DNA of 64,000 bases. Origin: the human T2T-CHM13v2.0 reference genome, Homo sapiens. The first letter of the stretch is position 1. Each line of letters begins with the position of its first letter. The stretch lies in NCBI GenBank assembly GCA_009914755.4, contig CP086569.2, positions 288,001 through 352,000 of the forward strand, given 5' to 3'. The position numbers were made by a program, and so were the translations under genes. The notes beneath the pieces are model-generated. The model had not been told where the DNA came from. It made no database searches and saw nothing but the letters and a program-made list of their open reading frames with translations. This document shows positions 37,541-43,860 of this stretch, in pieces.

Positions 37541-37817
37541 AGACAGGGTCTTGCTCTATTGCCCAGGCTGGAGTGCAGTGGCAGGATCATAGCTCACTGC
37601 AGCCTCAACCTCTCAGGCTCAAGCAATCCTCCCGTTTTAGCCTCCTGAGTCACTGGGACTACCGGTGTACACCACCATGCCCAGCTAATTTTTTAATTTT
37701 TTGCCTAGAAGGGGAGTCTCACTATGTTGCCCGGCCTGGTTGGGAACCCCTAGGCTCAAGCACTCTTCCCAGCTTCCAAAGTGCTGTGGTGACAGCTGTG
37801 AGCCACCGTGCCCGGCC
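37541..37817 (-). mobile_element. Alu SINE, minus (older, diverged)
   Basis: agagacagggtcttgctctattgcccaggctggagtgcagtggcaggatcatagctcactgcagcctcaacctctcaggctcaagcaatcctcccgttttagcctcctgagtcactgggactaccggtgtacaccaccatgcccagctaatttttt ... caaagtgctgtggtgacagctgtgagccaccgtgcccggcc. Confidence 0.88.
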
Positions 37818-37924
37818 AGGTTGGACAAGTACTAACATACTGTCCATAACATAAGCTGTATGCCGGATGCATACGGCCGGCCTATAGTTTCTGCAAATCC
37901 AGAAAAGCTTACTGCAACTGCAGA

Positions 37925-40900: not shown

Positions 40901-43445
40901 GAGGGAGGGAGGAAGGAGAGGGAGGAAGGAAGGAGACAGAGGGAGGAAGGAGAGGGAGGAAGGAAGGAGAGGGAGGGAGGAAGGAGAGGGAGGAAGGAAG
41001 GAGACAGAGGGAGGAAGGAGAGGGAGGAAGGAAGGAGAGGGAGGGAGGAAGGAGAGGGAGGAAGGAAGGAGACAGAGGGAGGAAGGAGAGGGAGGAAGGA
41101 AGGAGAGGGAGGGAGGAAGGAAGGAAGGAGACAGAGGGAGGAAGGAAGGAAGGAGACAGAGGGAGGAAGGAGAGGGAGGAAGGAAGTAGAGGGAGGGAGG
41201 AAGGAGAGGGAGGGAGGAAGGAGAGGGAGGAAGGAAGGAGACAGAGGGAGGAAGGAGAGGGAGGAAGGAAGGAGAGGGAGGGAGGAAGGAGAGGGAGGAA
41301 GGAAGGAGACAGAGGGAGGAAGGAGAGGGAGGAAGGAAGGAGAGGGAGGGAGGAAGGAGAGGGAGGAAGGAAGGAGACAGAGGGAGGAAGGAGAGGGAGG
41401 AAGGAAGGAGAGGGAGGAAGGAAGGAGAGGGAGGAAGGAAGGAGACAGAGGGAGGAAGGAGAGGGAGGAAGGAAGGAGAGGGAGGGAGGAAGGAAGGAAG
41501 GAGACAGAGGGAGGAAGGAGAGGGAGGAAGGAAGGAGAGGGAGGAAGGAAGGAAGGAAGGAGACAGAGGGAGGAAGGAAGGAAGGAGACAGAGGGAGGAA
41601 GGAGAGGGAGGAAGGAAGGAGAGGGAGGGAGGAAGGAAGGAAGGAGACAGAGGGAGGAAGGAAGGAAGGAGACAGAGGGAGGAAGGAGAGGGAGGGAGGA
41701 AGGAGAGGGAGGGAGGAAGGAAGGAAGGAGACGGAGGAAGGAAGGAGAGGGAGGGAGGAAGGAAGGAAGGAGATGGAGGAAGGAAGGAGAGGGAGGAAGG
41801 AAGGAGAGGGAGGAAGGAAGGAGAGGGAGGAAGGAAGGAGAGGGAGGAAGGAAGGAGAGGGAGGAAGGAAGGAGAGGGAGGGAGGAAGGAAGGAGATAGA
41901 GGGAGGAAGGAGAGGGAGGGAGGAAGGAGAGGGAGGGAGGAAGGAAGGAAGGAGAGGGAGGGAGGAAGGAGAGGGAGGGAGGAAGGAAGGAGAGGGAGGA
42001 AGGAGAGGGAGGGAGGAAGGAAGGAGAGGGAGGGAGGAAGGAAGGAGATGGAGGGAGGAAGGAGACGGAGGAAGGAAGGAGAGGGAGGGAGGAAGGAAGG
42101 AAGGAGACGGAGGAAGGAAGGAGAGGGAGGGAGGAAGGAAGGAGACGGAGGAAGGAGACGGAGGAAGGAAGGAGAGGGAGGAAGGAAGGAAGGAAGGAGA
42201 TGGAGGAAGGAAGGAGAGGGAGGAAGGAAGGAGGGAAGGGAGGGAGGAAGGAAGGAGACAGAGGGAGGAAGGAGACAGAGGGAGGAAGGAGAGGGAGGGA
42301 GGAAGGAAGGAAGGAAGGAGAGGGAGGAAGGAAGGAAGGAAGGAGACAGAGGGAGGAAGGAAGGAGACGGAGGAAGGAAGGAGAGGGAGGGAGGAAGGAA
42401 GGAAGGAGATGGAGGAAGGAAGGAGAGGGAGGAAGGAAGGAGAGGGAGGGAGGAAGGAAGGAAGGAGACGGAGGAAGGAAGGAGAGGGAGGGAGGAAGGA
42501 AGGAGACGGAGGAAGGAGACGGAGGAAGGAAGGAGAGGGAGGAAGGAAGGAAGGAGATGGAGGAAGGAAGGAGAGGGAGGAAGGAAGGAGGGAAGGGAGG
42601 GAGGAAGGAAGGAGAGGGAGGGAAGGAAGGAGAGGGAGGGAGGAAGGAGGGAAGGGAGGGAGGAAGGAAGGAGAGGGAGGGAGGAAGGAAGGAGACGGAG
42701 GAAGGAGAGGGAGGAAGGAAGGAGAGGGAGGAAGGAAGGAAGGAGAGGGAGGAAGGAAGGGAAGGGAGGAAGGAAGGGAAGGGAGGGAGGAAGGAAGGAA
42801 GGAGACGGAGGAAGGAAGGAGAGGGAGGGAGGAAGGAAGGAGACGGAGGAAGGAGACGGAGGAAGGAAGGAGAGGGAGGAAGGAAGGAAGGAAGGAGATG
42901 GAGGAAGGAAGGAGAGGGAGGAAGGAAGGAGGGAAGGGAGGGAGGAAGGAAGGAGAGGGAGGGAAGGAAGGAGAGGGAGGAAGGAAGGAGAGGGAGGGAG
43001 GAAGGAGGGAAGGGAGGGAGGAAGGAAGGAGAGGGAGGGAGGAAGGAAGGAGACGGAGGAAGGAGAGGGAGGAAGGAAGGAGAGGGAGGAAGGAAGGAAG
43101 GAGAGGGAGGAAGGAAGGGAAGGGAGGAAGGAAGGGAAGGGAGGGAGGAAGGAAGGAGAGGGAGGAAGGAAGGAAAGAGAGGGAGGAAGGAAGGGAAGGG
43201 AGGAAGGAAGGGAAGGGAGGGAGGAAGGAAGGAGAGGGAGGAAGGAAGGAGAGGGAGGAAGGAAGGGAAGGGAGGGAGGAAGGAAGGAGAGGGAGGAAGG
43301 AAGGAGAGGGAGGAAGGAAGGAAGGAAGGAGATGGAGGAAGGAAGGAGAGGGAGGAAGGAAGGAGGGAAGGGAGGGAGGAAGGAAGCAGAGGGAGGGAAG
43401 GAAGGAAGGAGGGGAGGGAGGAAGGAAAGAAAGAAGGAAGGAAGA
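37925..43445. repeat. Giant polypurine (GGAA/GGGA/GAGG) tandem array of about 5.5 kb, purine on plus and pyrimidine on minus, with two sub-domains: 37925-41770 and 41770-43445
   Basis: Domain 1 units such as ggaaggaaggagacagagggaggaaggagagggaggaaggaaggagagggagggag are reiterated about 60-70 times with small length variants. Domain 2 switches to gacggagg/gatggagg/gggaagggagg variants (ggaaggagacggaggaaggaaggagagggagggaggaag...). The plus strand is essentially 100% A+G apart from scattered C/T in gacag/gacgg/gatgg. The 1109-aa (+), 681-aa (-) and 596-aa ORFs are stop-free read-through (E/G/R/K on plus, S/L/P/F on minus). Confidence 0.97.
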
Positions 43446-43860
43446 TTCTAATTCAAATCAGTTGCTTAAGAGGGAGAGATCAGGAAGTTCCCAACTAAAG
43501 TGCTGGGGTGACAGGTGTGAGCCACCATGCCCGGCCAGGTTCCCCAGCTGTTTGGACAAGTAGTAACAAGTAGCTAACTGCAAATGCACAAAGAAAGAAG
43601 GAGGAAAGAAAGAAAGAGAGAGAGAGAAGGAAGAAAGGAAAGAGAAAGAAGAAAAGAAAAAACCAATTCTAATTCAAATCAGTTGCTTAAGAGGGAGAGA
43701 TCAGGAAGAAAGAAAGAAGGAAAGAGAAAGAAAGGAAAAGAAGAAAGAAAGAGAGAAAGAAAGAAAGAAAGAAAGAAAGAAAGAAAGAAAGAAAGAAAGA
43801 AAGAAAGAAAAACAAATCCTAATTCAAATCACTTGCTTAAGAGGGAGAAATAAGGCAATT
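43443..43860. repeat. Composite flank: a 40-bp motif (ttctaattcaaatcagttgcttaagagggagagatcagg) repeated 3 times, interleaved with (GAAA)n/(GA)n tracts and an Alu-end-like piece
   Basis: Copies sit at about 43447, about 43668 and about 43815, the last as ...tcctaattcaaatcacttgcttaagagggagaaataagg. (aagaaaga)n runs lie at 43600-43660 and 43700-43810. aaagtgctggggtgacaggtgtgagccaccatgcccggccagg at about 43497-43545 is an Alu 5'-end reverse complement. Confidence 0.85.

What the first reader, a model, noticed from the sequence alone, without database searches (positions are those of the whole stretch)
37780..43640. The polypurine array is bracketed by a direct duplication of its own 5' flank, so the whole array may sit inside a large tandem duplication
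The roughly 150 bp just before the array (Alu end ...gtgagccaccgtgcccggccaggttggacaagtactaaca...actgcaactgcagaaagaaaaaaaaaagaaagagag at 37795-37960) is repeated after it (...gtgagccaccatgcccggccaggttccccagctgtttggacaagtagtaacaagtagctaactgcaaatgcacaaagaaagaaggaggaaagaaagaaagagag at 43515-43625). A 40-bp motif ttctaattcaaatcagttgcttaagagggagagatcagg also occurs three times in the 3' flank, interleaved with (GAAA)n. This pattern suggests unequal crossing-over between copies of a duplicated [Alu-tail + flank + (GA)n] module, with the purine tract growing between them, rather than simple slippage of a single microsatellite.
Basis: seen in the sequence. Interest (0 to 1): 0.5.

Follow-up and report, generated by a model that had tools for sequence, protein, structure and literature searches.

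The report
Old small duplication flanking polypurine array
The 5.5-kb purine-only repeat array does sit in the first copy of a small, old tandem duplication whose breakpoint lies in an Alu element, but the array grew later by copying its own internal blocks, which is ordinary repeat evolution.

Summary
A 49-bp fragment of the head of the antisense AluJ that lies 5' of the array, its junction with the flank, two blocks of unique flank and the first ~45 bp of the purine tract recur 3' of the array in the same order. They differ at 8 of 94 non-purine positions and by indels of 3, 12 and ~65 bp. The 39-bp motif occurs three times; M1 and M2 are identical and M3 differs at 4 positions.

The layout is [Alu head–F–P–M][Alu head–F–P–M][P–M]. 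TTCCCA microhomology sits at the junction.

- The Alu piece is the 5' head of an antisense Alu, not its tail.
- The duplication looks old (8.5% divergence), whereas the array contains exact internal duplications of up to 460 bp.
- The array is a 17-bp-unit minisatellite with higher-order repeats of 59, 68, 305, 358 and 391 bp.
- No Alu, flank or motif remnant lies inside the array. The sister tracts P2 and P3 (77 and 111 bp, A-rich) share almost no 12-mers with its core.

So the array most likely expanded by internal block duplication inside one copy, not by crossing-over between modules. No ortholog data could be reached. The finding is ordinary.

The parts
37540..37817 (-). Full-length antisense Alu, best match AluJo at 80% identity. 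Its 5' head (…GCCCGGCC on the + strand) ends at 37817.
   Evidence: head segment.
37766..37771 (+). TTCCCA inside the AluJ: left breakpoint of the duplicated segment and microhomology with the right breakpoint.
   Evidence: Homology with copy 2 starts here. The bases upstream (…GCACTC) have no counterpart before 43488.
37818..37921 (+). F1, unique flank of copy 1. It holds the junction AGGTT, block B (37823-37837), ~65 bases absent from copy 2 (37838-37905) and block C (starts at 37906).
37922..43445 (+). P1, the polypurine array: 5524 bp, 98.5% purine, 17-bp base units (GGAGAGGGAGGAAGGAA and variants), higher-order blocks of 59, 68, 305, 358 and 391 bp. The first ~45 bp are colinear with the start of P2.
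43446..43487 (+). M1: the 39-bp motif TTCTAATTCAAATCAGTTGCTTAAGAGGGAGAGATCAGG followed by AAG.
43488..43536 (+). 49-bp fragment of the same Alu head (copy 2). It starts at TTCCCAACT, which is the duplication junction.
43537..43589 (+). F2, flank of copy 2: AGGTT, a 12-bp insert, block B (43554-43568) and block C (starts at 43572).
43590..43666 (+). P2, short A-rich purine tract of copy 2 (about 77 bp), ending in AAAAAACCAA.
43667..43708 (+). M2, identical to M1 over 43 bp (43666-43708 = 43445-43487).
43706..43816 (+). P3, (GAAA)n-type tract of the partial third copy. Its start, AAAGAAAGAAGGA, equals the start of P2.
43817..43855 (+). M3, the motif copy next to unique sequence. It differs from M1 and M2 at 4 of 39 positions.
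43860..43865 (+). TTCCCA in the unique right flank of M3: proposed right-hand microhomology of the original duplication.
   Evidence: right-flank comparison of M1, M3 and the AluJ.

Best explanation
The ancestral arrangement was: antisense AluJ, about 100 bp of unique flank (F), a short A/GA-rich purine tract (P), the 39-bp motif (M), then unique DNA.

1. A small tandem duplication copied the segment that runs from TTCCCA inside the Alu head to just before TTCCCA on the right of M. The two breakpoints share that 6-bp microhomology. This gave [Alu head-F-P-M][Alu head-F-P-M].
2. A later exchange or conversion between copies, plus loss of one Alu head-F piece, produced the third [P-M] unit and made M1 and M2 identical.
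3. Only afterwards did the purine tract of the first copy acquire G-rich 17-bp units. It then expanded to 5.5 kb by repeated tandem duplication of its own multi-unit blocks (59 and 68 bp, then 305-391 bp). The mechanism would be replication slippage or template switching, or unequal sister-chromatid exchange within the array.
4. The two sister tracts stayed at about 80-110 bp.

Shown by the sequence: the duplication, its junction, the block structure of the array and the lack of module remnants inside it. Inferred: the order of events, the timing and the molecular mechanism.
For: Duplication:
- Colinear blocks with 8/94 mismatches.
- The best Alu-head match in the window, and the only one that extends past the Alu end.
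- A variant, GGTGACAG, private to these 2 of 53 Alu heads.
- Flank score above 4999/5000 random window segments.
- A 49-bp piece of the Alu 5' end cannot come from a separate retrotransposition, which truncates 5' ends (established knowledge).

Junction: M1 and M3 stay similar through TTCCCA, and the AluJ and copy 2 become similar from TTCCCA onward.

Later exchange: M1 and M2 are identical over 43 bp, against 8.5% divergence for the flanks (P = 0.02 if the same age). M1 vs M3 is 4/39. P3 starts like P2.

Array grown from inside and later:
- Identity at offset 17 is 0.80, against 0.76 at offset 4. Local best offsets are 59, 68, 305, 358 and 391.
- Exact internal duplications of 460 bp (offset 391), 231 bp (offset 305) and 202 bp (offset 714).
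- The string of units shows CAD, CABA and longer blocks in four domains.
- Pyrimidines occur only inside unit variants.
- P2 and P3 have 26-31% G against 58% in the array, share 0/67 and 1/100 12-mers with its core, and contain no GGGAGG.
Against: - No orthologous or second-haplotype sequence could be obtained, so ages rest on 8 substitutions (95% CI 3.7-16%). Mutation next to an unstable purine tract may be faster than average.
- The order of the module events is not resolved. The M1/M2 identity could be chance at the 2-5% level.
- The TTCCCA microhomology is only 6 bp.
- Identity between blocks inside the array can be kept up by conversion, so it dates the last homogenisation, not the first growth.
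- Array length in an assembly of such a repeat may be imprecise.
Confidence: 0.7

Rival explanations
1. One reading: repeated unequal crossing-over between copies of the [Alu end + flank + (GA)n] module is what made the purine tract grow.
For: There are 2.7 module copies. M1 and M2 are identical while the flanks differ by 8.5%, which fits at least one exchange or conversion between modules.
Against: - Exchange between modules changes the number of modules, yet 5.5 kb of array holds no Alu, F or M remnant.
- Growth is explained by internal blocks of 59-391 bp, some exact over 460 bp.
- P2 and P3 are unrelated in k-mer content to the array core.
Confidence: 0.1
2. A 5.7-kb tandem duplication took place after the array was already large, and the array in the second copy then collapsed to about 80 bp.
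For: Large purine tracts are known to contract (general knowledge). Nothing in the sequence speaks for this directly.
Against: P2 and P3 are A-rich (GAAA/GA), contain no 17-bp unit and share no 12-mers with the array core. Only the A-rich first ~45 bp of P1 align with P2. The flanks are 8.5% diverged while array blocks are identical.
Confidence: 0.05
3. Chance resemblance: two independent Alu insertions next to A-rich DNA.
For: Alu heads are everywhere (53 in this window). The head match at 93% is only slightly better than the next best, 92.5%.
Against: - The same Alu/flank junction (GCCCGGCCAGGTT) in both copies.
- A shared private variant.
- Two colinear unique blocks.
- A 3'-truncated 49-bp Alu head is not a product of retrotransposition.
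- The motif M is also repeated.
Confidence: 0.02
4. Assembly artefact: the array length, or the flank copy, was produced by mis-assembly of long reads.
For: Kilobase-scale low-complexity arrays with exact internal duplications are hard to assemble. This cannot be tested here.
Against: Artefactual duplications are near-identical, whereas these flank copies differ by 8.5% and several indels. The array has an ordered, domain-specific unit grammar.
Confidence: 0.05

Closest known systems
Microhomology-mediated tandem duplication (replicative template switching of the FoSTeS/MMBIR type, or end joining)
   Same: Head-to-tail copies and a junction that sits in a 6-bp microhomology (TTCCCA) between otherwise unrelated sequences. 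One breakpoint lies in an Alu.
   Different: It was very small at origin (about 200-250 bp) and is old (8.5% diverged). Only one breakpoint is in an Alu, so it is not Alu-Alu recombination. The mechanism is inferred from the junction only.
A-rich microsatellites born from Alu or L1 poly(A) tails (review PMC3812793, abstract seen). A textbook case lies in this window at 48737-49146, behind a sense Alu.
   Same: P2, P3 and the 5' edge of P1 are (GAAA)n/(GA)n-type A-rich purine tracts, as such tails become.
   Different: The neighbouring AluJ is antisense, and the tract lies 104 bp beyond its head, not at its tail. The source of the original A-rich tract is unknown.
Minisatellite or satellite arrays with higher-order repeats that evolve by unequal exchange and slippage (reviews PMC8122249 and PMC5615363, listed but not read; the comparison rests on general knowledge)
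   Same: A 17-bp base unit, nested higher-order blocks, domains, homogeneous interior blocks and more variable edges.
   Different: It is composed almost only of purines on one strand, and it is a single 5.5-kb locus rather than a genome-wide family, as far as could be tested.
Long homopurine/homopyrimidine H-motif repeats, over-represented in the human T2T genome and proposed to be expansion-prone (McGinty et al. 2025, PMC12214015)
   Same: 98.5% homopurine strand, with pure-purine runs of up to 278 bp.
   Different: It is not a simple 1-6-bp repeat. Perfect mirror arms reach at most 11 nt. Imperfect mirror arms (31 nt) are no longer than in a shuffled array (29 nt).
Disease-type expansions seeded in or beside Alu elements (for example the CNBP CCTG repeat from an AluSx, PMC3378579, abstract; FXN GAA and RFC1 AAGGG from general knowledge)
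   Same: A purine-rich tract next to an Alu grew far beyond its sister tracts.
   Different: Those repeats arise within the Alu A-rich regions and keep one short motif. Here the tract is outside the Alu and has a 17-bp unit with higher-order structure.

Membership tests
Tandem segmental duplication | Two copies of the same segment, same orientation, adjacent, colinear | tested here: met
   Alu head, junction, block B, block C, purine edge and M occur in the same order in copies 1 and 2.
Tandem segmental duplication | The copies derive from one ancestral sequence rather than from independent insertions | tested here: met
   Identical Alu/flank junction and a GGTGACAG variant private to these 2 of 53 Alu heads. 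Flank score above 4999/5000 random segments.
Microhomology-mediated junction | A short identity shared by both parental breakpoints at the novel junction | tested here: met
   TTCCCA at 37766 (AluJ), 43488 (junction) and 43860 (right flank of M3). It is only 6 bp, so support is moderate.
Alu-Alu recombination (NAHR) duplication | Both breakpoints lie in Alu elements and produce a chimeric Alu | tested here: not met
   The right breakpoint lies in non-Alu sequence after M. The junction joins M to an Alu head fragment.
Alu poly(A)-derived microsatellite | The repeat abuts the 3' A-tail of the Alu, on the strand where the Alu is in sense | tested here: not met
   The AluJ is antisense. The array lies 104 bp beyond its 5' head.
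Simple microsatellite (1-6-bp unit) grown by slippage | A single short motif accounts for the array | tested here: not met
   The best period is 17 (0.80) against 4 (0.76). There are 33 unit types arranged in blocks of 59-391 bp.
Higher-order-repeat minisatellite | Multi-unit blocks repeated with higher identity than neighbouring base units | tested here: met
   460 bp exact at offset 391, 231 bp at offset 305 and 179 bp at offset 358. Unit string.
H-DNA (triplex) motif | Homopurine/homopyrimidine strand asymmetry | tested here: met
   5443 of 5524 bases are purines.
H-DNA (triplex) motif | Mirror symmetry of the purine tract | tested here: inconclusive
   Perfect arms are at most 11 nt. Arms of 31 nt with up to 2 mismatches compare with 29 nt in a shuffled array. 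Symmetry is no more than composition gives.
H-DNA (triplex) motif | Formation of the structure in DNA or in cells | not testable with these tools
   This needs S1 or permanganate footprinting at the locus.

The most novel reading that the evidence does not exclude
The duplication created three sister purine tracts a few hundred bases apart in the same environment. Only the one that acquired G-rich 17-bp units expanded, 50-70-fold. In the boldest reading the duplication itself triggered this, for example through pairing or triplex interaction between neighbouring direct purine tracts that stalls replication. The locus would then be a natural experiment on what tips a purine tract into runaway growth, and the growth might be lineage-specific or polymorphic.
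Probability: 0.07. Interest if true: 0.5.

Novelty: new member of a known kind. Interest (0 to 1): 0.22.

Why it matters
This is a clean single-locus example of two separable layers of repeat evolution. One is an old small duplication with a microhomology junction. The other is a much younger expansion of one of the resulting purine tracts by duplication of its own blocks.

The three sister tracts give an internal control: same origin, same neighbourhood, very different fates. That could be useful to people who study why some purine repeats expand.

It does not reveal a new mechanism, and no function is indicated.

Tried and rejected
- **Rfam on the whole window:** no match, so this is not an rDNA spacer or other known RNA locus.
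- **Other copies of the locus:** the motif pattern gave 0 hits in metagenome contigs and in genome contigs. Two ORFs beside M3 are not on record in the assembly collection. No held paper contains the unit or motif sequences. No ortholog or haplotype comparison was therefore possible, and the chromosomal locus and species were not identified.
- **Large protein searches:** not used. The only ORFs here are low-complexity artefacts of the repeat, and the exact look-ups suggested the collection lacks this DNA.
- **megablast self-comparison of the array:** returned nothing useful. It was replaced by an offset scan.
- **A fuzzy-regex Alu scan:** timed out. It was replaced by blastn-short.
- **Target-site duplication of the AluJ:** only a weak 12/14 match in AT-rich sequence (37489-37502 vs 37828-37841; 23 of 2000 shuffles reach it). 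It is not used as evidence.
- **A different Alu head:** the flank beyond the head at 12880 scored as high as F1 against F2 under very permissive gap costs. It lies in a low-complexity ATC-rich tandem array and was not examined further; I treat it as spurious.
- **H-DNA as a driver:** mirror symmetry is not above composition, so it remains only a possibility.
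Full report
**Setting.** The window is primate DNA, dense in Alu elements and minisatellites, with no Rfam match and no convincing gene. The region in question reads, left to right:
- 104 bp of unique flank, F1 (37818-37921)
- the purine array, P1 (37922-43445)
- a 39-bp motif, M1 (43446-43484, followed by AAG)
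- a 49-bp Alu head fragment (43488-43536)
- a second flank, F2 (43537-43589)
- a short purine tract, P2 (43590-43666)
- motif M2 (43667-43705)
- a (GAAA)n-type tract, P3 (43706-43816)
- motif M3 (43817-43855)
- unique sequence

| Block | Copy 1 | Copy 2 | Match |
|---|---|---|---|
| TTCCCAGCT / TTCCCAACT | 37766-37774 | 43488-43496 | 8/9 |
| Alu head plus junction AGGTT | 37778-37822 | 43497-43541 | 42/45 |
| GGACAAGTA(C/G)TAACA | 37823-37837 | 43554-43568 | 14/15 |
| AGCT(T/A)ACTGCAA(C/A)TGCA(G/C)AAAGAAA | 37906-37930 | 43572-43596 | 22/25 |
| Purine edge | 37938-37965 | 43604-43631 | 27/28 |

Over the non-purine blocks there are 8 mismatches in 94 positions, 8.5% (95% CI 3.7-16.1%).

The repeat is patchy. 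Copy 1 carries about 65 extra bases (37838-37905) and a 3-bp insert. Copy 2 carries a 12-bp insert and a small internal duplication.

Chance is excluded on several counts:
- The copy-2 head has its best match in the window at the copy-1 head, and only that match runs past the end of the Alu.
- Of 53 Alu-head segments in the window, only these two carry GGTGACAG instead of GATTACAG or GATGACAG.
- The unique flank alone scores above 4999 of 5000 random window segments.
- A 49-bp piece of the Alu 5' end is not what retrotransposition leaves, because it truncates 5' ends (established knowledge). Copy 2 must therefore be a copy of the resident Alu-flank junction.

The 39-bp motif occurs three times and nowhere else in the window. 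M1 and M2 are identical over 43 bp, and M3 differs at 4 of 39 positions.

The purine tract is therefore not this Alu's poly(A).

**The junction.** M1 and M3 remain similar beyond the motif through TTCCCA:
- M1: GGAAG-TTCCCAAC
- M3: GGCAATTTCCCACC

The AluJ and copy 2 become similar exactly from TTCCCA onward. This is the signature of a tandem duplication whose two breakpoints share a 6-bp microhomology. One breakpoint is inside the Alu head at 37766. The other is just right of the motif, now at 43860.

**Three motifs but two Alu heads.**
- M1 and M2 are identical, although the flanks differ by 8.5% (P = 0.02 for no mismatch in 43 bp at that divergence).
- M1/M2 against M3 (4/39) matches the flank divergence.
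- P3 begins with the same 13 bases as P2, directly after M2's GGAAG.

The simplest account has three steps: the original duplication, then an unequal exchange (or template switch) between the purine tracts of the two copies that added a copy of M1, and then loss of the Alu head-F piece of the extra unit. This order is inferred and not proven.

**The array itself.**
- It is 5524 bp with 81 pyrimidines.
- It is not a simple microsatellite. Self-identity peaks at offset 17 (0.80) ahead of offset 4 (0.76). Local best offsets are 59, 68, 305, 358 and 391.
- Cutting it at GGAGA gives 260 units of 33 types. Three 17-mers dominate: GGAGAGGGAGGAAGGAA, GGAGAGGGAGGGAGGAA and GGAGACAGAGGGAGGAA. They are arranged as CAD (59 bp) and CABA (68 bp) blocks and longer super-blocks, in four domains.
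- The last domain (from about 41700) uses CpG-bearing units (GACGGAGG) and their TpG derivatives.
- There are exact internal duplications: 460 bp at offset 391 (38294-38753 = 38685-39144), 231 bp at offset 305 and 202 bp at offset 714.
- Every pyrimidine lies inside a unit variant. No Alu, F or M remnant is present.

**Sister tracts.** P2 and P3 are A-rich (26-31% G, against 58% in the array). They contain no GGGAGG and share 0/67 and 1/100 12-mers with the array core. Only the A-rich first ~45 bp of P1 align with the start of P2. They are therefore not collapsed versions of the present array. The duplication happened when the tract was short and A-rich.

**Timing.** Eight mismatches in 94 positions would be very unlikely for copies younger than the human-chimpanzee split (P = 3e-5 at 1.3% expected divergence). 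The AluJ is 20% from its consensus, so the duplication is younger than the Alu insertion. Array blocks with no mismatch over 460 bp are much younger, or were homogenised recently. There are two caveats: few sites were available, and mutation beside an unstable tract may be raised.

I could not check apes. The motif is absent from the metagenome and prokaryote-genome collections, ORFs beside M3 are not on record, and no paper holds these sequences.

**Mechanism.** The best-supported account is a small old microhomology-mediated tandem duplication, followed by minor exchange between copies. Independent runaway growth of one tract followed, by duplication of its own blocks through slippage or template switching, or unequal sister-chromatid exchange inside the array.

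Non-B DNA may contribute. Long homopurine repeats are over-represented and thought to be expansion-prone (PMC12214015). Here, however, mirror symmetry is no greater than composition gives: perfect arms reach at most 11 nt, and imperfect arms of 31 nt compare with 29 nt in a shuffle. That step stays speculative.

**Comparison and verdict.** The pieces all belong to known kinds: tandem duplication with junction microhomology, A-rich purine microsatellites, and higher-order-repeat minisatellites. It is not Alu-Alu recombination, because only one breakpoint is in an Alu. It is not an Alu-tail microsatellite either. A textbook example of that lies at 48737-49146 behind a sense Alu.

The finding is ordinary, with modest value as a case in which three sister purine tracts had very different fates.

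Noticed in passing
window 37864-37890 vs 45276-46429: Part of the ~65 bases present only in F1 (GGATGCATACGGCCGGCCTATAGTTTC) matches the 40-bp unit of the minisatellite 7.4 kb downstream (GGATGTATACAGCCGGCCTGTGGTCTC) at 22/27. No shuffle out of 2000 reached that score. It might be an older dispersed duplication or a templated insertion; this is unexplained.
   Followed up: partly
window 48383-49146: A sense-orientation Alu (head at 48383-48431) is followed by a 410-bp (GAAA)n/(GGAA)n tract at 48737-49146. This is the classical Alu-tail-derived purine microsatellite, in contrast with the array studied. It shares 53/399 12-mers with the big array's core.
   Followed up: partly
window 41700-43400: CpG-bearing unit variants (GGAGACGGAGG, 14 sites) and their TpG forms (GGAGATGGAGG, 7 sites) are confined to the 3' domain of the array. 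The 5' domains use GGAGACAGAGGG (47 sites). This looks like CpG decay recorded in repeat units.
   Followed up: partly
window 3942-5179: A 155-bp Alu-derived unit is repeated 8 times at 98% identity, forming an Alu-fragment minisatellite. Similar smaller cases lie at 25036-25558 (166 bp x 3.1) and 1576-2448.
   Followed up: no
window 33138-33260: A 21-bp unit (AGCATTCCTTCCAGATCCTTC) is repeated 5.9 times at 100% identity.
   Followed up: no
window 58938-60762 and 62089-63052: Two arrays of what looks like the same 48-bp unit in rotated register, 1.3 kb apart (37 and 20 copies). There are further large minisatellites at 52426-54166 (106 bp), 49817-50852 (21 bp) and 16612-17894 (383 bp). The window is unusually dense in minisatellites, as in subtelomeric-type regions.
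   Followed up: no
window 36450-36900 and 37190-37500: Two AT-rich low-complexity blocks (TATAA-like, 34% GC) flank another antisense Alu just upstream of the AluJ.
   Followed up: no
window 37860-41189 and 41773-43563: ORFs of 1109 and 596 aa run through the array (G/R/K/E-rich). They are translation artefacts of the purine repeat, not genes.
   Followed up: yes
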